Shown: positions 9,776-45,969 of the stretch, one piece after another
Layout: every line of letters starts with the position of its first letter
Position numbering within the stretch: position 1 is the stretch's first letter
Origin: Rhizophagus irregularis
Lineage: Eukaryota
Reading direction: 5' to 3'
DNA: 64,000 nucleotides
Assembly: GCF_026210795.1 (NCBI RefSeq)
Contig: NC_089433.1
Span: forward strand, 868,001 to 932,000
Translations under genes and position numbers: made by a program
Notes under the pieces: generated by a model
What the model was told of the DNA's origin: nothing
Databases searched by the model: none
The model's input: only the letters and a program-made list of their open reading frames with translations

Positions 9776-10871
9776 TAGTGCTTCGACCCGGATGAAAACC
9801 GTCATCCGGATTACACAAAAAAAAAATCCGGATTATATCCGGATTGACCCGGATTTTGAATCCGGATCAGATAATCCGGATAGAAACCGGAAACCGGATT
9901 GGATTTACAAATGATCGGCAATAATTCTGGCCAGAATTCATAACGCCGGCCAGAATTACAAATTGTGTAACATTAAATTTTCATGCCAGCCGATAAAAAA
10001 TTTTTTGCCCGGTGGCTAAACTATTTTCTCGGTGTCACGTGATCTTAATTTCGGCCAGAATTACAAATTTGGCCAAAATTATCCAAGACCACGAAATTTA
10101 CATAATTCCAATTTCATTAAATACTTTTCTTTAAAACAATTTCATATTATTTCAGCATTGTCTCAGACTATTGTTTAACATTTCTTTGTAAATTAACTAA
10201 TTATGAAATTTTAAACAAGATATTTTTATATACAGCTAAAGATTACTATAAATAGATGTGTTGGGTTAGTAAGGCAATTTTTTAAGGATTTGTTTCTTCT
10301 TTCAAAAATTAAAGAATCATTTGAATCAAATTACATAACACTAGTTTTAATTTTTAAAAAAAGTTGTTATAATTATATAAATTTATAATATTGAACAATT
10401 TTTCATTTTAAAACAATAATTATTATTTTGTTGTAACAAAAATAATATAAAGTTTTTTTTCTTTTGAACGTTTGAATGTGAAATCTAAAATTATTTGTTA
10501 TTTGTTAATGTATAAATTTAAATAAACAAATCTGATACAAACTTCAATAAATAAATTATAATTGAAAAATCTTCTTAAACTTACTGTATTAAAAAGTTTA
10601 ATAACAAATATAAATTTAATAAATTTTAATAAAAAAATTGGTATTAGGCGCAAAAATAATTAGCCATAATATCATTTAGATATAGATCTTTATGGATCAG
10701 CAAAATTATTATTAATAAAAAAAAAAATAATAAAAATTTCATCCGGATTCCGGGTCAAACCGGATATTTTTCATCCGGTTTATAATCCGGATGAAAACCG
10801 TGAAAATCCGGATATCCGAAAAAAAAAATCCGGATCAATCCGGATTGATCCGGATACGGGTCGAGGCACTA
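9776..10871 (+). mobile_element. 1.1-kb non-autonomous hAT element, copy A
   Basis: TIR TAGTGCTTCGACCCG / CGGGTCGAGGCACTA, perfect 8-bp TSD TTTGCGGA, subterminal ATCCGGAT repeats. Confidence 0.92.
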
Positions 10872-26800: not shown

Positions 26801-29800
26801 TAGTGTTTCGGGCGAAACCGAAACTAAATTTTTGGCGAAACTTCCGAAACTTGGCGAAACTAGTTTCGCCACCAGTGCAAAATTCCGAAACTGGCGGAAT
26901 TTCCGAAACCTAGCGAAACTTGCCCAAACTTCCGTAACTTCCGTAACTTGGCAAAACATGTTTTATTTATTTTTTTGTAATACATGACTGGTTTAACAAA
27001 AAAAATAACAAAATTTATTTATAAATTGCAACTTTACAATTTAGAATATTACAATATTACATAGTATTAATTATTTCATCAGCTTCGGCAGCTGGATCCC
27101 ATTCAATATCATCATTTTCATTCATAGGAACGTCTACTCTATTATCTTGAATCTCATCTTCTACACTATCTATACTATCTTCAATTATATCACCCAAAGT
27201 ATCAACAAATGCATCTAAGTCCAAAATATTATCAATATTTAATTCTTCCTCCTCACCAATTACTATTTCCTCCTCATTATTGTAATAATCAAGTAATTCA
27301 TCTTCCAATTCAAGAAGGTCTTGGTCGGGATTCAAATGTGCATCAATTAATATTTGATGAATTTCTTCAGTGGATTTTTCTATACCATAATAAGGCAATT
27401 CTTTTTTCACATTTGCATGATAATAGGCTGAAAGTTTATACATATTTTCAACTTTATTTAAGCCTAAACGGGTCCTTCTTTTGCCATATATCCAACCAAG
27501 ACTTGACCATACTCGCTCACATCCAGCTGCATGAGGTGTGACGGAAAAAAGTTTAAGTGCTAGTTGAACTAAGTAATCCTCATCTTTAGGAAAGCTATCC
27601 TCAATTGAAAACCACCAAGTATATGGAGTTTCAGTATCACCCATTTCAATATCAAAAGGTTTTTCTCGTATACGATATTGTTTCATTTGATGCATTAATT
27701 CTTTACGTTCAGCTTTGTTTTTTCCCATTTTCATAAAAATTTCATCTGCTATCATTAATAAATCTCTAAACAGACCTCGTGCCCAGCAAATTTCTAAAGT
27801 ATTTATTTGGTATGATAAATTTAATTTAGTAAATAATTTTATAATAATAACTATAATTTTGTCTTTGAAAAAAAAAAATGTGTTTGAATTTTCCATTTAG
27901 TGATTTATTAATTATTATTATAAGAATTACAGATAATATGATCCAAACTTACCAGTATAATACGGGTGTAAAAAAAAGCATAATAAATATATTGGATCAG
28001 CAAATTCAGCGTAACGACGGTTAAAAATTGAAATACACTGCTGACGAAAAACTCGATGATCATTATTAGGTAATTTTTTAATTGCAGCTCCAAGTTTTGC
28101 AAGTCCAAGAAAACAATCAGCAAGGGTGCAAGACTGAGATTCTAATGCTGCAATTGATTGTTTAATAGGACGTAAGGTAAATGCTAACGCACGTACATCA
28201 TCAAAAAATGCACGTGATCGTAAAACTGATAATACTGCTGTTGAAAGGTTTTTGGGTTTTTCACATTTTAACTAAATAAAAAGCAAAAAAATGAAATTAT
28301 TTGTTGAATTAGTAATTTAATGAATTCAGACAAATGGTTCAAAATCTTACATTTTCTAATGGTACTTTATGGCGCATAATTGAATCAACACAGTCATACA
28401 TAGTGTGCCATCTGGTATTTACCCATTTCTTCAATCCACCTCCACTAATACCACAAGCTTTAGCTTCTTCTTTTAATGCAGAACCTTTTTATATTAAATA
28501 AATTAATAAAACAATTGTAATATCAAAAAATAAAATAAAATAAAATTTAAATTAAATTACCTCCTTGATGGCTTTTTTTAAAGTATGTCACAATAGTATT
28601 ACATTTTGTTAAAATCCGATTTGCAAATGAAGTAGAGCAAATATCTTTTGAAATCAGATTAATAGCATGTGCCATGCAACGCACATTAAGAATATTTTTA
28701 TACTTTTCTGTGATAATTTGTCGTGCATTTCGAATATTTGCTCCTGAATCCGATACAATTGCTGAAAAATTTGCTGGACCAATTTCATCAATTATTTCAT
28801 CAATTGTTTTGGCTAAAAATTCGCCAGTATGGCTTTCACTTGATAGATCCTTTAAGCACCACAAATACTCCTTATGGTTGAGTGTGTGAATTAAAAAATC
28901 CCAAATTGACTCATTTGCTGAGTTTGTCCACCCATCACATGCTTGTTAGATTTAAAATAAAGATTAATTAAAATTAAATTAAAATCATTAATCATTAATA
29001 AATCAATAAACAACATACACAATGTTAAATTCACTGTATTTTTCAAATCTTTCATAACTTGTGTGTTCACAACTGCAGTTTAGTCTGCCAGAAAGTAATT
29101 CTTTTGATGGTGGCGTGTATCCTGGACGTAGAGTCTTCAAAAATTCAACAAAAAAAGGATTTTCAATTACATGCCATGAAATGCCACATACAACAAATGC
29201 TTTTACACAAGCACGATCAATTTCATGAATTCTATCCTCAGAGAGTTGACTACTTTCATGAAATTCTGACATTTTTGTTTGAATTGAACCATCATTAAGT
29301 TTTCGCTTTTTAGATGAAAGATTGGTCATATTTCCTTCAGCTTTTGCAGCAAGATGATTTAAGAAAAAGTTCCTTGTATCAGCCGGTACTTTAGAACAAT
29401 CATTAGCGAAGTGTGCTTCCAACTCTTGTGGTGAGCCCTTTTTCCAAAATAAATCACAGTATACACAGGTTGCTTCATAGTGACCTTCTGATTCTTTTCT
29501 ACCTTGTATAGCATTATCTCTCCATACCAAAGACTTAGGACGACCACCAGAATTTTTACTTTTCTTTTTTGTTGGAGTTATAGGAGTTGCATTTGGGGAA
29601 GGGTTAGAAAAGGTAAAAATTTGTGTAGACATAATTGAAGAAAATGATAATTGATAAGTGATTGTTTTCAAAGTTGGGCGATAAGAAAAAAGGGGGTTCA
29701 GGGGTAAATGGTTATTTATAAATAAACGCGTCAGTCACGTCATATAAATCTCCTTACATTTTTGCGAGGTAATACACGTGACATTTTTAGTTTCGCCAGG

Positions 29801-29925
29801 TTTCGGAAGTTTCGCCAGGTTTCGGAAATTTCGCCAAATTTCGGCAGTTTCGGAATGGCCCAAACTGAAACCTAAAATGGGCGAAATGTTTCACCAATCG
29901 CAAAACAGTTTCGCCCGAAACATTA
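26801..29925 (-). mobile_element. Full-length hAT DNA transposon
   Basis: TIR TAGTGTTTCGGGCGAAAC / GTTTCGCCCGAAACATTA, perfect 8-bp TSD CCTCCGAA, subterminal CGAAAC repeats, internal transposase. Confidence 0.95.
27057..29632 (-). pseudogene. hAT transposase (BED zinc finger, DUF659-type RNase H-like core, hATC dimerisation domain), intron-containing and frameshifted
   Basis: CVYC...H...C BED finger, CDGWT, VSDSGAN, RCMAHAINL, TRWHT, WW...LALKLFS...AGCERVWS. Frameshift near 29,080. Confidence 0.85.
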
Positions 29926-31247
29926 CCTCCGAATATAATGTTTGGGATTAACCGTAAACCAGGTAATAAACAATCATACAATATTATTTAAATCATTAAC
30001 TTGGGCTTACCGTGAGCACAATTGTAGTATACATGATTCACTTATAAACTGAAAATCTCTAATTGGATTATATGTTTATTATGTTATTATCTTTATTTAA
30101 AAAGTTACTAATAATATTAACGCTTATTTAGTTTAGCTAGCCTAAGATTTTTCCCATTTCATTGAACTGACGTTCTTTATCATATTCTAAGAGCTGACCA
30201 TAATGTTCAAATCACCGAATTCTTCTTCGATCCCAGAAAAACTTTTGAATCTTTTATCCAAAATGATTATCTTGAACCGAAGTACAAATTTGGAAGCGAG
30301 GGATTAAATGGATTCGCTCAAAATCCTGAACTTTCTTCTGATTTTACAAACAAGAGTATCCAGAATTTAATTACGCCTTTTGTACTGAACCATCATCATG
30401 TAACATTAATTTGAGCGTTATTTTAGAGAATCGATTAAAAAGAACATTTACAAGTAAATTAACTAATAATGGCTGTCAGTTTTTAGTATAGCACATAAAT
30501 TTTACAATGAAGCTATGAAAATTTTTTTGTTTTTGAGAAGTGGAGCCAAAATATATATTTTTTACTATTTGATAAATATTTGGTTTGACCTCTATTTGCA
30601 TCAACAAATTTGAATTTCATATCAATAACCTTTCTAATAATTATGCTATTTTCAAAATTATTTCACTCCTTTCTAAATAAATTGAAAAATGGCTTGTAAA
30701 TTTTTTTCTTTTTTTGTTATTGCTATCTTCTTAATTTACTGCTTCAAAAACAACCCAAAGTTTTCGCTATGATTTGAGATTTGAGCGTAAAATGGACATG
30801 AAAAACTCATTATTTAAAGACAAATTTCATTCCACCTAAATATTATGTAAGTTGTTATTTACACCTCTATTATAATAATAAGCTCATCAATAACCTAAAA
30901 ATTATTTGGTAAGCCAAAAATACATATTTTAAAGTTTTCTTGTTAAGAATTAAAATAATGTGAAAATGACCATCATTTCAATTTTGGTAGTATTTTGCTT
31001 TAGTATTGATATTTAAAAACAAAATATTTAAAATTTCGGCATTTTTTATAAGAGAGGGATAAATTAATACAAATAATGTGATTTATGCTACGCCACAATG
31101 GGAGATTGACAGCTGTCAGCTGACACACATTTATACATGCAGTATCTCATGCAGTGCTTGATCAACATGCATATTGTATCACAATATACTCTTATTAATA
31201 AAGGCGTAAAAAAAAAAAATTTACATTGTTAAGAGAATTATATAGTA

Positions 31248-34200
31248 ATGGCTCAAATCAAAGGTAAATATAACATACTAAGCAGACTGAAATATTAAAA
31301 TTTTTATTTAATAATAAATAAATTTATTTATTAATAATTTAAATATTATCTATTACCTTACGTAATATACATATGATATGATTTAAATGAATTACATTCT
31401 TGTTTAAAAATTATATTAAACAATTAGCTCGTAAGTTAATAAGTTATTTTATAGTTTAATAATATTGGAATTGCTTATTTTATTATATTCTATATAACTA
31501 AATAATTTATTTAACGATTAATAATATTATATATATAGTTAGTAAGTTATCAGTTATTTAAATCTTTAGTTCTTTACTCTATTTTGCATAATATTCAAAT
31601 AACTAAATTCTTTGTTTAAATAACTATTCAATAATCTATTATGATACAGATGGTAAGTTACAATTCTTAAAAGTTATATTTACTTGTTTAATATTTTATA
31701 TAACTAATTATATTCTTTATTTAGATTGTAAGTAATATATTTTATTTACAGTATATAATATTATATTATTTATATGATTATATCTAACTAATTATAATAA
31801 TTAATAATACTACAGGGTGTAAGTTATATGTCATCTACATTATTTCTACTATTTGTATAGTTTAAACTAACTAAATCTATTTACAAACAAATTATTTGGT
31901 TATTTCTTTTAGTTCGTAAGCTGAGTTATTATTTAATTCTATTGTTATGTATGTATATAATATTTACATATAAACTAACTAAATTTTTATTTAAAAATTA
32001 TTTAATGATATAGGGGGTAAGTTATTATTTAATTCTATTATGCTATCAATATTTCTATTGAGTATATAATTTAAATTTTAAACTAATTAAAATCTTTATT
32101 TTAATAATATAGCTTGTAAGTTATTTATTTACTTCGACTATTATTTATTTATATAATAATAATATATAATTTAAACTAAAAATTCTCTATTTAAAAAATT
32201 ATTTAATAATATAGCTTGTAAGTTATTTATTTAATTCTATTATTGCTTGCATATTTATATATTATATATAATTTAAACTAACTAAATTTCTTATTTAAAC
32301 TTAATAATATAGGGAGTAAGTTATTTATTTAGTTCTATTTTATTATATATTTATATGCATTTTAAATTTTTTCAAAAAATTATTTTGTAATTTCTTTTAG
32401 TTGGTAAGTCATAAGTTATTTATTTAATTTTATTATTACATCTTTATAATATTTATACATAATTCACATAATTTAACCTAACTAAATTCTTTATTTGGTA
32501 ATTTATTTTAGAACGTAAGTTATTATTTATTTAATTCTATTAGTATATATTTATATACTGTATTATTTATAATGTTTACGCATAATTTATAATTAAATTT
32601 TTTAATTAAAAAATTATATGATAATTTATTTTAGAACGTAAGTTATAGTTATTTATTTAATTTTATTTTTAAATATTTATAATATTTACATATAATTTAA
32701 ATTATGTAAATTCTTTATTTAAAAAATTAATTAATAACATAGGGGGTAAGTTATTTATTTAATTTTATTATTATATATTTGTATAATGTTTGCATACAGT
32801 TTAAGTTAACTAAATTCTTTATTTAAAAAATTATTTGGTAATTTCTTTTAGAACGTAAGTTATAAGTGATTTATTTAATTTATTATTATATATTTAGGAC
32901 ATTACAACTTATTTGTTAGTTTAATGTACTGATTCTTCTCTATTTTTTAAAAATCTAAAATATAATGAACATATAATAACATTTGTTTAAATACTTTCTT
33001 TAAATTATGATTATTTGAAATTTTCTGAAATTTTCTATATTCTCAAAATTTCTTAGATTTATTTAATCTATTTAATGAAAATTCCTTCTCCCACTTTATA
33101 GAAAATTCTGATGTTAAACAAACAATTAAATTGAAATGAACTTATATAATGTTTAAATGTAATTTAAATTAACTAAACTTTATTTAAATAATTTCATTTA
33201 GATCGTAAGTTATAAGTTATTATTCAATTGTATTATTACACATTTGCAGTACATTATATTTACATATAATTCAAACAAACTAAATTCCTTATTAAAAAAA
33301 ATTATTTAATAATATAGGAAGTAAGTTATTCATTTAATTCTACTATTATTATATACTTATGTAATATATTTATATATGTAATTTAAATTAACTAAATTCT
33401 TTATTTAAAAAAATTATTTAATATTATACTAGGGAGTAAGTTATTTATTTAATTTTATTATTATTACATAATTATATAATATTTACATATAATTTAATGA
33501 ATTAAATTCTTCATTCAAAAAAATTATTTAATAATAGAGAGTAAGTAATTTTATTATTACATATTTATAATATTTACATATAATTTAAACTAACTAAATT
33601 CTTTATTTAAAAATTATTTTGTAATATCTTTTAGTTGGTAAGTTATAAGTTTTTTGTTTAATTTTTTTTATTGTATTTGTATATAATGCTTATGTATAAT
33701 TTAATTCTTTATTCACAAATTATTTAATAATATAGCTCGTAAGTTATTTATTTAATTCTATGATTTATTATATTTTTATAATTTTTATATAATATTTGCA
33801 TATAATTTAAATTAATTAAGTTCTTTATTTAAAAATTATTTGGTAATTTTTTTTAGAACGTAAGTTATAACTTATTTATTAATTCTATTATTATAAATTT
33901 GTATAATGTAATCTAAATTAACTATTTAAAAATTATTTAATAATAGTTGGTAAGTTTTAGGTTATTTATTTAATTCTACGATACATATATCTATTTAAAC
34001 TAATTAAATTCATAATTTAAAATTTTTTTAATAATATAGAAAGTAAGTTACTATTTAATTTTATTATTATATATTTATACAATATTTTACATATAATTTA
34101 AACTAAATTCTTTATTTAAAATTTATTTATTAATTAATATAGGAGGTAAGTTATTTATTTAATTATATATAGGGATGGCAACGGTCAGTTATAGTCGGTC

Positions 34201-35427
34201 ATGGTCAGTTATAATCGATTATAGCAATTTAAACGGTCAGTTATGGTCGGTTAAAAATTGGTTAAACGGTCAGTTAAATGGTCGGTTATACCATTTTACT
34301 TAAATAATTGGTTAAATGGTCAGTTAAATGGTTAAAAATGGTCGGTCAGATGTTAAAACGGTTGGTTATGATCATAACTGTTGCCATCCCTAATTATATA
34401 TTATATAAAATTTATATATAATTTAAACTAATTAAATTCTATATGAAATTATTTAATAATATAGCAAGTAAGTTATTTATCTAATTCTCAATAGTTAATA
34501 TATTTACGTATATTTACATATAATCTAAACTAACTAAATTATTCAAAAATTATAGCTCGTAAGTTATTTATTTTCTATCATTATATATTTATATAATATT
34601 TGCATATAATTTAAACTAACTAAATTCTTTAATAAATTGTTAATATTATAGGAAGTAAGTTATTATTATTACATATTTATATAATATACATAATATTTAT
34701 GTATAATTTAAACTAATTAAATTCTTTAATCTTTATATAAAAATTATTCAATAATATAGCTTGTAAGTTAATTATTTAATTTTACTATTACATAATTATA
34801 TAATATTTATATATAATTTAAACTAATTAAATTTTTTATTTAAAAAAAAACTTAATAATAGATGGTAAGTTATTTATTCAATTCTAATATTATGTATTTA
34901 TATAATGATTGCATATAATTTATATTAATTTAATTCTTTATTTAATAAATTATTTAATAATATAGAAAGTAAGAATTTTAATATATATTTAGTATATAAT
35001 ATTTTTATATTTAAAAGTTAAACTAACTAAATATTTTATTTAAAAATTATTTAATCAAATAGATTGTAAGTTAGTAGTTATTTAATTTTATTACATATAA
35101 TTATATAATTTGTATATAATTAAACTAACTAAATTCTTAAAAAATTTAGATTGTAAATTATTATTTAATTTTGTTATCATAATACTTACATAAAATTTAA
35201 ACTAATTAAATCCTTTATTTAAAAAAATTATTTAATAATATAGGGGGTAAGTTATTTACTTAATTTTGTTATTGTATGTTTATATAATTTAAAATAACAA
35301 CTTTTTATTTTAAAACTATTTAATAATATAGGAGGTAGGTTATTTATTATATATTTATATAATATTTATATATGATTCATTTAATTAATTGAATTCTTTA
35401 TTAACAAAATTATTAATAATGTAGAGA
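31248..35427 (+). CDS. Candidate gene built from a 16-nt first exon plus 36 three-nucleotide micro-exons (3' end not found)
   Basis: Exon 1 ATGGCTCAAATCAAAG|GTAAAT, then 36 YAG-NNN-GT units about 100 bp apart with CTAAC/CTAAT branch-like motifs. Joined frame is MAQIKALNDWFRASWIEQREHRRKIAQLERATRTYENYWGE, with no stop. Confidence 0.7.
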
Positions 35428-35440
35428 GTGAGTTTTAATT
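31400..35440 (+). repeat. Degenerate ~100-bp tandem repeat whose unit is one intron plus one 3-nt exon
   Basis: Recurring consensus GTAAGTTATTTATTTAATTCTATTA...ATATAATTTAAACTAACTAAATTCTTTATTTAAAAAATTATTTAATAATATAG-NNN. Confidence 0.92.
34170..34392. mobile_element. hAT-type MITE inside an intron of the micro-exon array
   Basis: TIR TAGGGATGGCAAC / GTTGCCATCCCTA, perfect 8-bp TSD ATTATATA, internal GGTCRGTTA repeats. Confidence 0.9.
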
Positions 35441-35471
35441 TTATTGTAGCATATTATTTAATGTTTATATA

Positions 35472-35970
35472 TGTTGTGCCTCAGATCGATTCATGCCTCA
35501 GATTGAAGCTCACGCACCTCACATTGAGATTGTCACCTGACGCACCTCATTTGAATCATTCAATAAAGTCTGTTATAAGTAAACTTTTTTTCTCATTAAT
35601 TAAACCACTTTTTGTAACATAAACAAACTTGTGCGCCATAATGAGTTACATGTTTCCTGAAATCTTTATGTAAATCTGATTCATATTGAAGTTTATACTT
35701 GTATTTTATCTGAAAAATCATTAAATTTTAAGTCATTTTTCAAATGAAAAGATTTAATGAGCATGATTCTAATTAATCTGAAATTTTAGGATTGTATACT
35801 TAAAATAATGATAAATAAGTTTACTTAGTACTTAAAAATACATTAAAATTGGAAATTTTGATGTTTAATTATAGCTCATTTTTATTAGCAATTGAGGTGC
35901 GTCAGATGACAATCTCAAACTGAGGTGCGTGAGCTTCAATCTGAGGCAAGAATCGATCTGAGGCACAACA
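35472..35970. mobile_element. MITE with ~80-bp TIRs
   Basis: TGTTGTGCCTCAGATCGATTC...GAATCGATCTGAGGCACAACA, flanked by TATATA. Confidence 0.88.
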
Positions 35971-35977
35971 TATATAT

Positions 35978-36430
35978 CCCCTATTAAAGAAAAAATTTTC
36001 TAACGAAATGATCTATCAAAACAAAAATCTTTCCTATTAAAAATGGAATTTCCATCAAAAGAAAACAAATTCTCAACGAAATTATTTATCGAAAAAAACT
36101 CCCTATTAAAGAAAAATTCTTCAATGAAATTCTCTCAAAAAACCCCTTATTAAAAAGATGCTCCAATGAAATCTACCAAAAAATATAAATAAATTCTCAA
36201 AAGAAATTCTAAAACTCTAACGAGATTAACTATCAAAAAAAAGAAATTTCCCTATTATAAAAAAATTCTCCAATGAAATTTCTATCAAAAAACAAGCTCC
36301 GCTATTAAAAGAAATTCCCTATCAATAAAAAAATTCCCAACGAAATTTTTTTATCAAAAAATTTCCAAAGAAATTCTTATCAAAAAAAAAAGCTTTGCAT
36401 ATATTAAAAAAAAAAATATCTCTACCAAAA
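35978..36430. repeat. Degenerate minisatellite (CCCTATTAAA...CAAYGAAATT...TATCAAAA units)
   Basis: About 6-7 recurrences of cctattaaa spaced 45-105 bp apart. Confidence 0.55.
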
Positions 36431-36539
36431 ATTTTTTAAAACTACGCTAACCATGTGATTGACAAAATATGTTGCCGGGCAATGTCAGCTCGGTGCTGAT
36501 CTTTTTCAGCATCGGATAGCATTTTTTCAGACTCTGAGC

Positions 36540-37637
36540 TAGTGCCTCGACCCGTATCCGGATCAATCCGGATTGATCCGGATTTTTTTTTTTCGGATAT
36601 CCGGATTTTCACGGGTTTCATCCGGATTATAAACCGGATGAAAAATATCCGGTTTGACCCGGAATCCGGATGAAATTTTTATTATTTTTTTTTTTAATTA
36701 ATAATGATTTTGCTGATCCATAAAGATCTATATCTAAATTATATTATGGCTAATTATTTTTGCGCCTAATACCAATTTTTTTATTAAAATTTATTAAATT
36801 TATATTTGTTATATTAAACTTTTTAATACAGTAAGTTTAAGAAGATTTTTCAATTATAATTTATTTATTGAAGTTTGTATCAGATTTGTTTATTTAAATT
36901 TATACATTAACAAATAACAAATAATTTTAGATTTCACATTCAAACGTTCAAAAGAAAAAAAACTTTATATTATTTTTGTTACAACAAAATAATAATTATT
37001 GTTTTAAATGAAAAATTGTTCAATATTATAAATTTATATAATTATAACAACTTTTTTTAAAAATTAAAACTAGTGTTATATAATTTGATTCAAATGATTC
37101 TTTAATTTTTGAAAGAAGAAACAAATCCTTAAAAAATTGCCTTACTAACCCAACACATCTATTTATAGTAATCTTTAGCTGTATATAAAAATATCTTGTT
37201 TAAAATTTCATAATTAGTTAATTTACAAAGAAATGTTAAACAATATTCTGAGACAATGCTGAAATAATATGAAATTGTTTTAAAGAAAAGTATTTAATGA
37301 AATTGGAATTATGTAAATTTCGTGGTCTTGGATAATTTTGGCCAAATTTGTAATTCTGGCCGAAATTAACATCACGTGACACCGGGAAATAGTTTAGCCA
37401 CCGGGCAAAAAATTTTTTATCGGCTGGCATGAAAATTTAATGTTACACAATTTGTAATTCTGGCCGGCGTTATGAATTCTGGCCAGAATTATTGCCGATC
37501 ATTTGTAAATCCAATCCGGTTTCCGGTTTCTATCCGGATTATCTGATCCGGATTCAAAATCCGGGTCAATCCGGATATAATCCGGATTTTTTTTTTGTGT
37601 AATCCGGATGACGGTTTTCATCCGGGTCGAAGCACTA
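36540..37637 (-). mobile_element. 1.1-kb non-autonomous hAT element, copy B (inverted relative to 9,776-10,871)
   Basis: Near-identical reverse complement of copy A, with its own perfect 8-bp TSD CTCTGAGC. Confidence 0.92.
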
Positions 37638-37928
37638 CTCTGAGCTGATCTTTGTCAGACCCGGACACCAGAACCGTGGAATGCTTAAAATAGGTTTATT
37701 CAACAAAATATTAATGCTGTACGACTATCATTGGCTTAATATAGGTTTATTATACACTCATTTACACAACAAAATATCGGAGAAAAGGTTTTTCCTAGAA
37801 TGTTTAATTGTTCATGAAAGTGACGAAAAATTTTATTGATTATTCATTGAGAATATACAAAACGAATATTTCATTTGGTTTTTAGATTATAAGAAAATAA
37901 AATCTTTTAAAAAAATTATTCTTAAAAA

Positions 37929-39452
37929 ATGAAGAAAATTATTCTCGCTTTTGGCTCAACAGGCCTTGGCAAGACAACAATGGCTCATTTGCTTTGTGAA
38001 GCAAATGTTAAGGGTTCAAGTGGTATTGAATCTGCAACTAAAATAGCAGTATATTATGAAACAGATAAATATTTATATATTGATACTTGTGGATTTGGTG
38101 ATTCATCTGGTAAAACAGATGAAGAATTATTTCATGATATGATGTGTTTATTTCAAAGATATGGACAAAATAATATCTTTAATATCAATACAATATTATG
38201 GTTTTGTTCTGAGAGTGAAAGAGAGACAAGTCACTTACAACGTGAGGCTAATTTTATTCAACGTCTTGTCGAATATACTGATGAATGTAACCCAATAGAT
38301 TTATGGAAAAGTGTCTTGATTATAACAAAGGGCAATTTAAATTTGCGCAAATTAGTTGATGGACCAAAATCTGCTGCAAGGAATGCTTGTTGGGCTTTTT
38401 CTAATAAACAACATTACGAATTTAATGAAGATTCTTTCTTCGTTAAACACTTTCCATGTTGGATCTATGACACTGAAGGTATCACAGAAGAAAATGCACG
38501 TTGGGTTAAAATGGATTCTAAAACTCGTTTCGAATTTAATTGTTATCGTCAGGATGAAATAAAATCAAAAGTTCAACATTTGATTTCAAATTTTAGTCCA
38601 ATAACAATACGCTTTAAACAAGGAATATGTAAAAAATGCAATGTAATTGGGGATCCAAGGCTTTTCATCACACAATGTCATACCAAATCATTTTTTAAAC
38701 ATTCTATAAAAATCGAATATTTTCATCCTGAAGAAATTGTTCATTTTCATTCGGGAAGTAAGTTTCTTGTTCATGAACCTGATGAAAACTCAATAAAAAA
38801 GCTTTTTGAAAGTATATTCGATGGCGATCAAATTGAGATTCCTGTGTCTCAAGTTTCAAGTGAAATAGCAGAAAAAATTATTGAATCGTGCAAATTATTT
38901 AATAATCAAACAAATGCAGCACCAGAGTTACAACCAGAATTACAACCATCATTTATGTCACAAATAATTTCACACGCACCTCAAGCAGCATCAAATTTAT
39001 TACAAACAGTAGCGCCATTAGTGACGACATTGGCCGTTCCCAGAATGGCACCTAGTACTGTAACTTCTACTTATCTTCTTTCAGGTCCTTCAGTAGCCTT
39101 CCTTGTCATTTGCTCCGAAAGAAATAAGTGTTGTTATGAGGCAAAAAATATCTCATGTAAAAGGTGTAAAAAATTGATTGAAGAAATAAATGAAATAGGC
39201 TGTATTGAAAAATGTGATAATTGTAAAAAAGAATGGATAGAAACTGGTTGTGCAACTGGATATGGATGTTGTAAACAAGAAGAGGGAAAGCTCGGATGTC
39301 AAGCACATGAAAGATGCACAATATGTGATGAAGCTGCGATCGAATTAAATTCCCAAGGATGTACGGAATTTTGCGTGAAGTGCAAAGAAATGTGGAATAT
39401 TACACCAGGCTGTGATTCCGCTTCCAAACACGATGTGTTGATAATGGATTGA
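37929..39452 (+). CDS. P-loop GTPase (AIG1/GIMAP- or MMR_HSR1-like) with Cys-rich C-terminal region
   Basis: 507-aa single-exon ORF. G1 GSTGLGKT, G2 SAT, G3 DTCG; many CxxC motifs in the last ~120 aa. Confidence 0.85.
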   Translation: MKKIILAFGSTGLGKTTMAHLLCEANVKGSSGIESATKIAVYYETDKYLYIDTCGFGDSSGKTDEELFHDMMCLFQRYGQNNIFNINTILWFCSESERETSHLQREANFIQRLVEYTDECNPIDLWKSVLIITKGNLNLRKLVDGPKSAARNACWAFSNKQHYEFNEDSFFVKHFPCWIYDTEGITEENARWVKMDSKTRFEFNCYRQDEIKSKVQHLISNFSPITIRFKQGICKKCNVIGDPRLFITQCHTKSFFKHSIKIEYFHPEEIVHFHSGSKFLVHEPDENSIKKLFESIFDGDQIEIPVSQVSSEIAEKIIESCKLFNNQTNAAPELQPELQPSFMSQIISHAPQAASNLLQTVAPLVTTLAVPRMAPSTVTSTYLLSGPSVAFLVICSERNKCCYEAKNISCKRCKKLIEEINEIGCIEKCDNCKKEWIETGCATGYGCCKQEEGKLGCQAHERCTICDEAAIELNSQGCTEFCVKCKEMWNITPGCDSASKHDVLIMD

Positions 39453-40477
39453 ATTTCATCTATTTTTTATGTTTTTTGAACATACGTACAAATGTACGAT
39501 AATTTAAAAGTTTATTACAAGATATACTTGTTTATATTACTTTTATTATAATATTTTTATACATTTAAAAATAAAGTTATAATTAACTCTTTTGTTTGTA
39601 ATTCATTTTATCATTTATTATCATCACCCGTAGACGAAACTAATAATTTTTGCCAATTTAGCGTCATGTGAAATTTGATATAATAATTACAACATTTATA
39701 TCATAATAAAACGAATTTACAAGGCAACTTTCAAAATATAATTTGTTCTTTTCAATATTATTAACAGAAATCTAATCACGATCATTAATGTTGATTAAAT
39801 ACTAAATATATTTAAGGTAGACAAAATAAAGCTTTCCTTTAAGTAAGTCCACTTTTGATTCCAAGTGATATATGGAGAATACAAAGTTTTTAAGAGTCGA
39901 TCAACTATTTAAATTTATATTTAAAGTTTGTGAGGCGCATTTTTTATCTTTTCTTTATTTTCTATGTATGTTATTTGTATTCAAAATGTCTCGAGGCATT
40001 TAAGCTTTAGCAATTATAATCTTCACGCTAACTATCTTTATATTCATTGCGACAGGATTTCTTGCTGTTGTGCGATACTAATGTAGCGCCAATAATATAT
40101 TTTCTTTTATGAAATATGAGTAAAACTTATATGTAATTCTAATTATTAGACGAATAATTGTTTCTTTGAAATATCACTTCAAATATTAAAATATTTCTAT
40201 GAAATAATTCAATCTATGATCTATTGTATTAAAGACATATTATTTCTGTGTATAAACTAAATTTCTAACAATATTTGGCAATGAGGAACGTACAAAGACT
40301 TAGACCCGACGTGGAACATTGCTATATTTTAGAATTAAAGGAATTTGCATGAAAAATATTGTTATACTAGTTGTTGAGATAAACCATCTTTAAAAAATTG
40401 CACTGCGCGTTGAATTTTACTAATTTATATTAATGTAAATTTTCTTTCGCGAATTCTTCTTTCGCGAATTAATTATA

Positions 40478-44087: not shown

Positions 44088-45969
44088 ATGCAAAAAAATA
44101 TTAAAAATAATTTTAAAGATAATAATGATCATAAGATTCTTGAAAGAGAATCTCTAGAACATAATTTGTTGAATAAAATTCATTATAAAAAAGAATCTTC
44201 AGAAAACATTAAGCTTGATAATTATTACGAAAAAGATATAGCTAATAAAGAATTCGGGGTTTGTTTTAATTGTAATAAACCACAGACTGAAGAAAATTGG
44301 TGTTTAAATTGTAATTCTAAATTTTTTCAAAAAGAATTCAATAATTGGAGAAGTGAAAATATGCATATAGATAAATTTATACAAGAAGCTCAATTAAATG
44401 CAAGAAATAATAACGAAGTTATAGAATGGATTAATTATGATCATTTTATAAATATACAATATATTACTCGAGGAGGATTTAGTATTATTTATGGGGCTGA
44501 TTGGTTAGATGGAAGTATTGATTGTTGGAATTATGAAAAGGAAAATTGGAATAGAATTACTCAAAAAAATGGAATTCGTGTAATACTTAAGAGTTTAAAC
44601 GATTCTTCGAATATTCACGAAGATTTCCTAAATGAGCGAGGTAATTATTTTTTTAATTTTTAATTTTTTAAATGGCATTTTTTTTTTTATTAATATAAAT
44701 ATATATATACCATTTTTAGTTGAAAAATCATTTAAAATTTTTATATTCAGCTATAAATAATTATTCAAATTTTGTGAAAATTTATGGAATAACTAAAGAT
44801 CCAAATACATCAAATTATATAATTGTTTTACAAGAAATGCCAATGGGTAATTTAAGATCTATACTTATGATAAAAAAATGGAATCAAAATGATAAATATT
44901 ATAATATATACGAGATAGCAAGTTCACTTTCCGCTTTGCATAAATGTGATCTAGTTCACGGTGATTTACATAGTGGAAATATACTTTTTAAAGATATATT
45001 TACTGCTTATATAAGCGATTTTGGATTAAGTAAACCTGCGGATCAATCTATTGATTATAATGTGATTTCTGGAGTACTTCCATATATTGCTCCAGAAGTT
45101 TTACGTGGAAAACCGTATACAAAAGCTGCTGATATTTATAGTCTTGGTGTTATTATGTGGGAATTTACATCTGGTGTTCCTGCTTTTAATAATAGACAGG
45201 ATGATTTTAATCTTTCCTTAGATATTTGTAGAGGATTAAGACCAGAAATTATAGAAGGAACAGAACCTGATTATGAAGAATTAATGAAAAGATGTTGGAA
45301 TACTGATCCCAATAAAAGACCAACTGCAGATGAATTAGCAGAAATATTTGACGTGTTATCTACTAAATTTATAATGCTAATGAAGGATGAAGAAAGAAAG
45401 TCAGTACCAGCAGTACCAGCAATACCAGGTAAATAAGATTTTTTTTTCTTATATTAATTAAATTTAATCATTAATCGATTATTACTATTATAGAGAATAA
45501 ATCATATCATCCATTAACTTGCTATACAAGTAGAAAATTTGATTATTCTGTAAAGTTGAATGAAATTTTAAATCAAGAAGAATTAAGTTTTAAATTTACA
45601 ATAAATGAGAAAGATGATTATAAAGAAACAATATTAAGTGAAAGTTTAGGTAAGTATTACTTGTTTTTTTTTATTAATTTTAGGAGTTAGTATTAGTACT
45701 AGGTATAATGTATTATTTAATTAACTAAATAACTATGGTGATAAATAATCATTTGCCGCTATATAGTAAATGAATAGCAGAACCCTTTTATTAATACATT
45801 TTTATATTAATAACTTTTATAGAAAATTGTAAGATTTCTAGTACCATTTTAGGTAATTTACATTTTTTATTTAATGTTTATAATTTTTCATATTTTAAAT
45901 TATTATTTTTTTTTTAATTAATTATTTTTTTTTGTAGATATTAATCAAGAAAAAAGAGAAAAAAGTTAA
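44088..45969 (+). CDS. Tyrosine-kinase-like protein kinase (Glomeromycotina-expanded type), 5 exons; exon 1/2 junction ambiguous
   Basis: N-terminal CxxC...WCxxC, RGGFS, VILKSL, HGDLHSGN, SDFG, YIAPE, DIYSLG, C-terminal HPLTCYTSR. Exons at about 44088-44640, 44720 or 44751-45428, 45494-45649, 45823-45852, 45938-45969. Confidence 0.85.

What the first reader, a model, noticed from the sequence alone, without database searches (positions are those of the whole stretch)
31428..35427. Codon-position bias and stop avoidance in the micro-exon payload support protein coding in phase 1
Seen: the middle base of each triplet is the third codon position in the phase-1 reading. It is A/T in 28 of 36 and never C, and 3 of the 8 G cases are obligatory Trp. 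First and last bases are freely C/G. This fits wobble usage in an AT-rich genome. Seven triplets end in T and twelve begin AA/AG/GA, yet no adjacent pair forms a stop (about (2/3)^7, roughly 0.06, if order were random; suggestive only). Caveat: the phase-0 reading (LLMIGFGLLGLNNGNIEGRLLNLKEQLELMKIIGER) is also open, and phase 2 stops at once. The phase-1 peptide looks like a charged amphipathic helix (inference). Skipping any exon keeps the frame but fuses two half-codons, so alternative splicing could yield a very large peptide repertoire (hypothesis).
Basis: partly seen in the sequence, partly recalled or inferred. Interest (0 to 1): 0.8.

Follow-up and report, generated by a model that had tools for sequence, protein, structure and literature searches.

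The report
Gene spelled in three-base exons
In a mycorrhizal fungus, a 4-kb stretch that looks like AT-rich repeat DNA is a transcribed gene whose three-base exons are joined in order, most likely giving a 44-residue peptide in which every codon is split between two exons, and the same layout in related fungi lies just before kinase domains, where it likely makes a fast-changing recognition segment.

Summary
In detail: 36 AG-NNN-GT units, with the counts as stated. The window is from Rhizophagus. Phase 1 follows from anatomy. An upstream exon with ATG 31248 ends in phase 1, and read-through of the last unit stops at 35436-38, predicting 44 residues from 36 introns. An RNA-type contig carries exons 23-32 joined in genomic order (30 of 30 shown letters) and ends exon 1 exactly at the donor. 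In 21 similar metagenome loci, phase-1 neighbours make 0 stops at 160 junctions against 6.3 expected, and five arrays run into kinase exons in phase 1. Not supported: skipping as a designed repertoire (skip junctions make stops at chance rate) and a special amphipathic helix. The codon-position bias does not repeat in the relatives. Variation more likely arises in DNA, by copying intron-plus-triplet units. The gene's 3' end, translation and function are untested. Codon-sized exon arrays are known from Tuber nank genes, and this scan noted others in other genomes. My eight paper searches found none for Glomeromycota.

The parts
31183..31263 (+). First exon: 5' leader (start not mapped) plus ATG at 31248 and 16 coding nt, ending in phase 1 at donor GTAAAT (31264)
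   Evidence: No ATG between 31168 and 31247; in phase 0 a stop lies six codons before the donor. The X18 contig piece ends at 31263 before GT; about one read each of X23 and X24 covers this exon (read off the depth bins)
31428..35334 (+). 35 internal 3-nt exons, each holding bases 2-3 of one codon and base 1 of the next; starts 31428, 31539, 31650, 31725, 31816, 31913, 32014, 32113, 32215, 32313, 32401, 32512, 32635, 32743, 32852, 33202, 33318, 33433, 33538, 33635, 33736, 33857, 33947, 34040, 34143, 34465, 34556, 34652, 34760, 34862, 34966, 35063, 35150, 35244, 35332
   Evidence: Exons 23-32 seen joined in X18; exons 2-5 matched at 11 of 12 letters by a variant copy in X23
31264..35424 (+). 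36 introns: first about 164 nt, 33 of 72-120 nt, two long ones (347 and 319 nt); about 10% GC; mutually similar repeat units
   Evidence: lengths; GC 0.096; identity 0.70 against 0.63 for shuffled introns; CTAAY branch-like word in 16 of 33; 31 of 36 unit donors GTAAGT, acceptors TAG 34, CAG 2
35425..35438 (+). 36th unit, predicted terminal exon: read through in phase 1 it adds four residues and stops at TAA 35436-35438; its GTGAGT could instead be a donor
   Evidence: not covered by any laid reads, so inferred
34171..34391 (.). Small inverted-repeat element inserted inside the intron behind exon 25; explains the 319-nt intron
   Evidence: Terminal inverted repeats visible
35456..35975 (.). 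Inverted-repeat element about 18 nt behind the predicted stop; holds AATAAA (35562) and ATTAAA (35599)
   Evidence: Self-inverted match at 70% over 537 columns

Best explanation
This is a transcribed Rhizophagus gene whose three-base exons are spliced together in genomic order, most likely read in phase 1 into a predicted 44-residue peptide whose sequence likely varies through copying and exchange of whole intron-plus-triplet units in the DNA. Shown: the units, the phase-1 first exon, ten consecutive junctions in an RNA-type contig, stop avoidance limited to direct neighbours in 21 similar loci, and flanks that travel with the triplet. Inferred: each junction builds one codon from base 3 of one exon and bases 1-2 of the next. 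Gain, loss or swap of a unit by unequal crossing-over or gene conversion between look-alike introns therefore keeps the frame and changes two adjacent residues, and selection removes neighbours that make a stop. In relatives the same layout writes a Trp/Asp/Arg-rich variable segment directly before a Glomeromycota-type kinase domain, or behind TPR repeats. The most likely role is a variable recognition surface, and the window gene would be a free-standing version of such a module, acting as ligand or decoy. Confidence is about 0.85 for in-order splicing, 0.7 for translated phase-1 coding, and 0.3 for the recognition role.
For:: X18 contig (depth 6.6) with a piece ending at 31263 before GT and a 220-nt loose end whose 30 shown letters equal exons 23-32 joined; that 30-mer is not contiguous in the window. 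X18 has no depth over 31315-31899 and no record 99% alike, unlike a DNA run. X23 (3 raw reads): a variant intron end, 12 letters matching exons 2-5 at 11 of 12, then the donor found behind exon 5. ATG 31248 is in phase 1 with no nearer ATG. Last base G/C in 19 of 36 rejects third codon position (reference 0.186); the middle base, 8 of 36, fits it. Relatives: 0 stops at 160 adjacent junctions against 6.28 (0 of 5000 permutations), 29 in phase 2. Phase-1 acceptors into kinase exons in L001, L007, L025, L081, L047; phase-1 upstream donors in L001, L026, L061, L096, L106. Identical triplets share flanks (P 0.0065 upstream, 0.00005 downstream). TAN, TGA and TGG triplets are 0 of 230 against 17.6 expected; each would form a rival donor with the G of the acceptor, which explains the open phase 0 without coding.
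Against: Only 10 of 36 junctions are seen in one low-depth contig of a run whose RNA nature is the tool's guess. That contig also holds about 21 nt of intron end before an AAC exon, so it is not fully spliced; retention there would stop the frame within 5 codons. Raw reads over exon 1 are about one per 11 million records. The X23 variant differs by a base that is silent in phase 0 and Asn-to-Asp in phase 1, and it may be a genomic 12-nt exon of a paralogue. Synonymous usage in pooled relatives is weak and favours phase 0 slightly (0.110 against 0.082 bits per codon; reference 0.384). In L007 a nearer YAG gives a longer phase-0 frame, and L075 enters its array in phase 2. Window introns resemble relatives' introns barely above shuffles (0.643 against 0.624), so common descent is unproven. 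The peptide matches nothing fetched. A Mantel test on number of matching bases was not significant (P 0.12).
Confidence: 0.62

Rival explanations
1. Detached relic. The array is the front of a once longer gene (kinase or other) cut off by the insertions behind unit 36; it is still transcribed and partly spliced but makes no useful peptide.
For: Sequence behind unit 36 starts like a family intron and is interrupted by an inverted-repeat element; GTGAGT is a working-looking donor in L066; arrays in relatives belong to longer proteins; low expression and intron retention; L020 shows that such arrays do decay.
Against: All 36 acceptors and 35 internal donors are intact although the introns are about 30% diverged from one another; frame open from ATG to a natural stop; no kinase remnant between the array and 44319.
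Confidence: 0.17
2. Splice-level diversifier, as in the first reader's idea and as reported for Tuber nank genes: frequent skipping of 3-nt exons makes many peptide variants.
For: Every exon is frame-neutral; 575 of 630 possible exon pairings are stop-free; precedent in Tuber (passages). Contigs drop rare forms, so skipping could be missed.
Against: No avoidance of stops at lags 2-4 in the window or in relatives; ten and three consecutive junctions seen in order, none shown skipped.
Confidence: 0.13
3. Phase-0 or dual coding: the triplets are whole codons.
For: No triplet is a stop (0 of 230); the one variant base in X23 is silent in phase 0; pooled synonymous usage leans slightly to phase 0.
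Against: Exon 1 has a stop and no ATG in phase 0; last-base GC 0.53 against 0.186; Tyr and Trp triplets are missing along with the stops, which points to a splice constraint; flanking exons in relatives are mostly phase 1.
Confidence: 0.04
4. Non-coding RNA or selfish tandem satellite of spliceable units; the triplets are mere spacers.
For: Units are repeats that were copied with their triplet; retained-intron RNA is common in the lay.
Against: Order-specific stop avoidance in relatives (0 of 160); triplets are 41% GC within 10% GC introns; arrays are in frame with kinase exons; no Rfam match at E 0.1.
Confidence: 0.04

Closest known systems
Codon-sized mini-exons of the Tuber melanosporum nank (NACHT-ankyrin) family, Iotti et al. 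2012 (paper not held; known here only from passages of PMC4986451 and PMC13449251)
   Same: Tens of codon-sized exons in a fungal symbiont of plants, in or beside expanded signalling or recognition gene families.
   Different: Glomeromycota, not Ascomycota; no NACHT or ankyrin; the array makes up 105 of 135 coding nt of a predicted micro-protein; evidence here points to in-order splicing, where Tuber is reported to splice alternatively; codons are split in phase 1 (the phase in Tuber could not be checked).
Schistosome micro-exon genes (MEGs) (passages of PMC5825161)
   Same: About 80% of the coding region in short symmetric exons (78% here).
   Different: MEG exons are 6-36 bp, these are 3; MEGs encode secreted or membrane-anchored proteins, while this peptide has a charged N-terminus with no evident signal peptide; MEG variants arise by alternative splicing.
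Expanded Glomeromycota protein kinases (Rhizophagus and Glomus hits)
   Same: The exon behind several related arrays is the front of this kinase type (best-listed identities 39-63%).
   Different: 86 of 118 fetched proteins with the landmark motif carry CxxC within 60 residues before it; in the array-bearing loci that place is taken by the micro-exon segment. The window gene has no kinase exon.

Membership tests
Tuber nank mini-exon genes | Tens of codon-sized exons in one gene | tested here: met
   35 internal 3-nt exons; 10 junctions seen joined
Tuber nank mini-exon genes | NACHT plus ankyrin protein | tested here: not met
   Predicted 44-residue product; no long frame behind the array other than a separate GTPase-like ORF; relatives carry kinase or TPR exons
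Tuber nank mini-exon genes | Extensive alternative splicing of the mini-exons | tested here: inconclusive
   No skipped form seen in 4 runs on the first 1.9 kb, at low depth; no stop avoidance at skip junctions
Schistosome MEGs | About 80% of coding sequence in short symmetric exons | tested here: met
   105 of 135 nt
Schistosome MEGs | Exon size 6-36 bp | tested here: not met
   All units are 3 nt; no other short length found between units
Schistosome MEGs | Secreted or membrane-anchored product | tested here: inconclusive
   By inspection no hydrophobic leader, 8 basic and 7 acidic residues; no predictor was run
Array-bearing Glomeromycota kinases (as seen in L001, L007, L025, L047, L081) | Kinase exon spliced behind the array | tested here: not met
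   Three kinase exons hit the window only at 44319-44636, a separate gene
Array-bearing Glomeromycota kinases (as seen in L001, L007, L025, L047, L081) | Homologous intron units | tested here: inconclusive
   0.643 against 0.624 for shuffles; relatives among themselves 0.71
Recursive splicing at zero-length exons (definition recalled) | No exon letters left between the introns | tested here: not met
   The triplets stand in the joined RNA

The most novel reading that the evidence does not exclude
Arbuscular mycorrhizal fungi run a family-wide 'codon cassette' diversifier: arrays of look-alike introns carrying split codons recombine in the DNA to rewrite a recognition segment residue by residue, in kinases and TPR proteins and in free micro-proteins such as this one, which act as variable ligands or decoys in self/non-self or symbiont recognition.
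Probability: 0.22. Interest if true: 0.88.

Novelty: new variant of a known kind. Interest (0 to 1): 0.67.

Why it matters
A gene with 36 introns in 135 coding bases shows how far exon size can shrink across almost a whole coding region. Such genes are likely missed by gene finders and read aligners, which would see AT-rich repeats. The loose reads and the metagenome loci suggest a hidden family in mycorrhizal fungi tied to their large kinase expansions. If the units recombine, this is a way for a fungus with many nuclei per cell to vary recognition proteins one residue pair at a time, and it can be tested with existing strain genomes and long reads.

Tried and rejected
No whole genome is held for this window, so paralogues in the same genome could not be counted. 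The joined peptide found no credible match in the window, the 109 loci or the 130 fetched proteins (best E 0.31). It was not searched in large protein collections and not folded. Amphipathic moment: not above shuffles. A downstream acceptor into a longer frame: ten candidates of 20 codons or more, mostly inside or beside insertion elements or in AT-rich spacer; the YAG at 37962 lies inside the Walker-A-like motif of the separate GTPase-like ORF and was rejected. Rfam: no match at E 0.1. Pfam: no family for the two short kinase-front exons of L025 and L007; kinase shown through and through the frames printed. Of 109 loci from the pattern scan, 85 failed the filter (mostly GTAA-type satellites or GC-richer arrays). 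Of 25 arrays in 24 loci that passed, L041 (2 arrays), L053, L059 and the first unit of L061 were dropped before counting. Runs were cut at gaps over 130 nt, which removed two phase-1 stops across gaps (L020, L066); both gaps hold units with unusual or broken splice sites. No periodic higher-order repeat stood out. This scan's notes hold nothing for this genome or for look-alike stretches.

Full report
Observation. The window holds 36 units of YAG, three bases and a GT donor between 31428 and 35427, on the + strand, mostly 75-123 nt apart. A strict pattern finds 34 inside the array and 2 in 119,402 nt of the rest on both strands; a three-unit pattern finds 14 against 0 in 100 shuffles. The exact permutation value for a stop-free phase 1 is 0.042. 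Only 17 distinct triplets occur, so the composition tests overstate their case.

Organism. Two window proteins fall in clusters whose named members are Rhizophagus irregularis and R. diaphanus. No genome is held. DNA runs under three organism labels hold up to 0.78 of the sampled words of 30900-39500.

Gene model. Upstream of the first unit lies ATG 31248, followed by 16 coding nt and a GTAAAT donor at 31264: phase 1. There is no ATG between 31168 and 31247, and in phase 0 a stop stands six codons before the donor. The last unit has the only GTGAGT of the array; read through, it ends in TAA at 35436-35438. The model is 135 nt, 44 residues, 36 introns, with 105 nt in 3-nt exons. The 3' end is inferred.

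RNA. Four runs were laid on 30600-32540 only. In X18 (contigs; RNA is the tool's guess) one contig of depth 6.6 has a piece ending at 31263 before GT, an unknown stretch, 24 letters like an intron end plus an AAC exon, and a loose end of 220 letters of which 30 are shown. These 30 equal exons 23-32 joined in genomic order and are not contiguous in the window. The 24 letters fit exon 22 or exon 15 with one mismatch; exon 22 is the direct neighbour. So ten junctions are seen spliced and one intron at least partly retained. X18 has no depth over 31315-31899 and no record 99% alike, which argues against plain DNA. In X23 three raw reads show a variant end of intron 2, twelve letters matching exons 2-5 at 11 of 12, and the donor found behind exon 5. 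This is either a partly spliced allele or paralogue, or a paralogue with a 12-nt exon. Its one difference is silent in phase 0 and Asn-to-Asp in phase 1, a point against my reading. Exon 1 is covered by about one read each in X23 and X24. X19 showed nothing specific to this gene.

Frame by composition. Against 2,235 codons of 8 window ORFs (GC1 0.40, GC2 0.32, GC3 0.19), synonymous usage scores +9.5 bits in phase 1, -13.2 in phase 0 and -8.9 in phase 2. The last base is G/C in 19 of 36, which excludes third position; the middle base, 8 of 36, fits it; the first base, 17 of 36, fits second position only marginally (P 0.049).

Similar arrays. A scan of metagenome contigs for three linked units returned 110 stretches from 10 of 64 parts; 109 loci were stored. 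25 arrays in 24 loci passed a filter for spacing and low GC. After dropping L041, L053, L059 and one false unit, 21 loci on 20 contigs remained, 18 of them from three assemblies, so they are not 21 independent samples. Cut at gaps over 130 nt, they give 194 units and 160 junctions. Phase 1 has 0 stops against 6.28 expected (0 of 5000 permutations); phase 2 has 29. Two phase-1 stops across long gaps were removed by the cut; both gaps hide units with odd or broken sites. At lags 2, 3 and 4 stops occur at or above chance (6 of 134, 9 of 109, 4 of 87 against 5.3, 4.4, 3.6; window 2 of 34, 3 of 33, 3 of 32 against about 2.2). Selection therefore acts on the full in-order product, not on skipped forms. 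The wobble signal does not repeat: middle C in 18 of 194, synonymous usage 0.082 bits per codon in phase 1 and 0.110 in phase 0 (reference 0.384); whole-codon usage favours phase 1 (52 against 34 bits). Trp is the commonest residue (19 of 160). The flanks fix the frame: family-like acceptors lead in phase 1 into kinase-front exons in L001, L007, L025, L081 and L047, and upstream donors are phase 1 in L001, L026, L061, L096 and L106. Exceptions: L007 has a nearer YAG with a longer phase-0 frame, and L075 leaves TPR repeats in phase 2 and seems to reach phase 1 through a 2-nt exon. The L025 exon finds 227 proteins, nearly all named ones Rhizophagus kinases. Window introns and these introns are barely more alike than shuffles (0.643 against 0.624), so they share a layout; shared descent is open.

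Why phase 0 is open. None of 230 triplets is TAA, TAG, TGA, TAT, TAC or TGG; 17.6 are expected from position frequencies. Each would form a donor-like hexamer with the G of the preceding AG. Since Tyr and Trp triplets are missing along with the stops, a splicing constraint explains it better than phase-0 coding (inference).

How the array grows. Window introns are 0.70 identical against 0.63 for shuffles. Units with the same triplet have more alike flanks (P 0.0065 upstream, 0.00005 downstream), though a graded Mantel test was not significant. Triplets thus travel with their intron ends, as expected from unit duplication or conversion. In phase 1 such an event keeps the frame and changes two neighbouring residues. 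That this is used for diversification is inferred from the very different peptides of the related arrays; no allele series was examined.

Function. The peptide has 8 basic and 7 acidic residues, no proline, and no amphipathic moment above shuffles. It matched nothing fetched. Because the relatives place the variable segment right before a kinase domain, where 86 of 118 fetched kinases carry CxxC, a recognition or regulatory surface is the likeliest role, and the window gene would be a free module. This is the weakest step.

Literature. Codon-sized mini-exons with alternative splicing are reported for Tuber melanosporum nank genes; I saw only passages citing Iotti et al. 2012 in PMC4986451 and PMC13449251; the paper is not held. 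MEG features come from passages of PMC5825161. Eight searches (listings only) showed no report of such arrays in Glomeromycota; subscription papers, and supplements that I did not open, may hold one. Earlier notes of this scan describe single-codon arrays in other fungi and protists, none for this genome; they are leads, not support.

Verdict. A real, spliced and extreme gene structure; a new variant of a known kind, set apart by split codons, near-complete coverage of the coding region, and a family in mycorrhizal fungi.

Noticed in passing
loose ends of X24 at window 32218 and 31929, X18 at 31950: Runs of triplet-like letters that differ from this array, followed by a retained intron of similar type: probably other micro-exon array genes expressed in the same species labels.
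   Followed up: partly
L075 679-680: Apparent 2-nt exon that shifts an array from phase 2 to phase 1 behind TPR repeats.
   Followed up: partly
L020 523-1012: Array with broken acceptors and an insertion: a decaying copy.
   Followed up: partly
L041 69-3666 (minus strand): A second kind of AT-rich array, at least 31 three-base units with unrelated introns and other short exon sizes, open in all frames.
   Followed up: no
L031, L103, L055, L097: GC-rich contigs that also match the three-unit pattern at about 90-nt spacing (12 and 13 units in L031 and L103): arrays in another lineage.
   Followed up: no
window 36540-37646 and 9776-10871: 1.1-kb inverted-repeat element with an 8-bp target duplication, present twice in the window at 98.8% identity.
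   Followed up: partly
window 32855-33201: 347-nt intron with about 240 nt of unrelated sequence; no hidden exon found.
   Followed up: partly
window 37929-39452: Single-exon 507-aa P-loop GTPase-like gene with a cysteine-rich C-terminus; cluster members are named G domain-containing protein.
   Followed up: partly
window 26832-29855: Transposon-like element with long inverted ends and broken transposase-like frames, upstream of the array gene.
   Followed up: no
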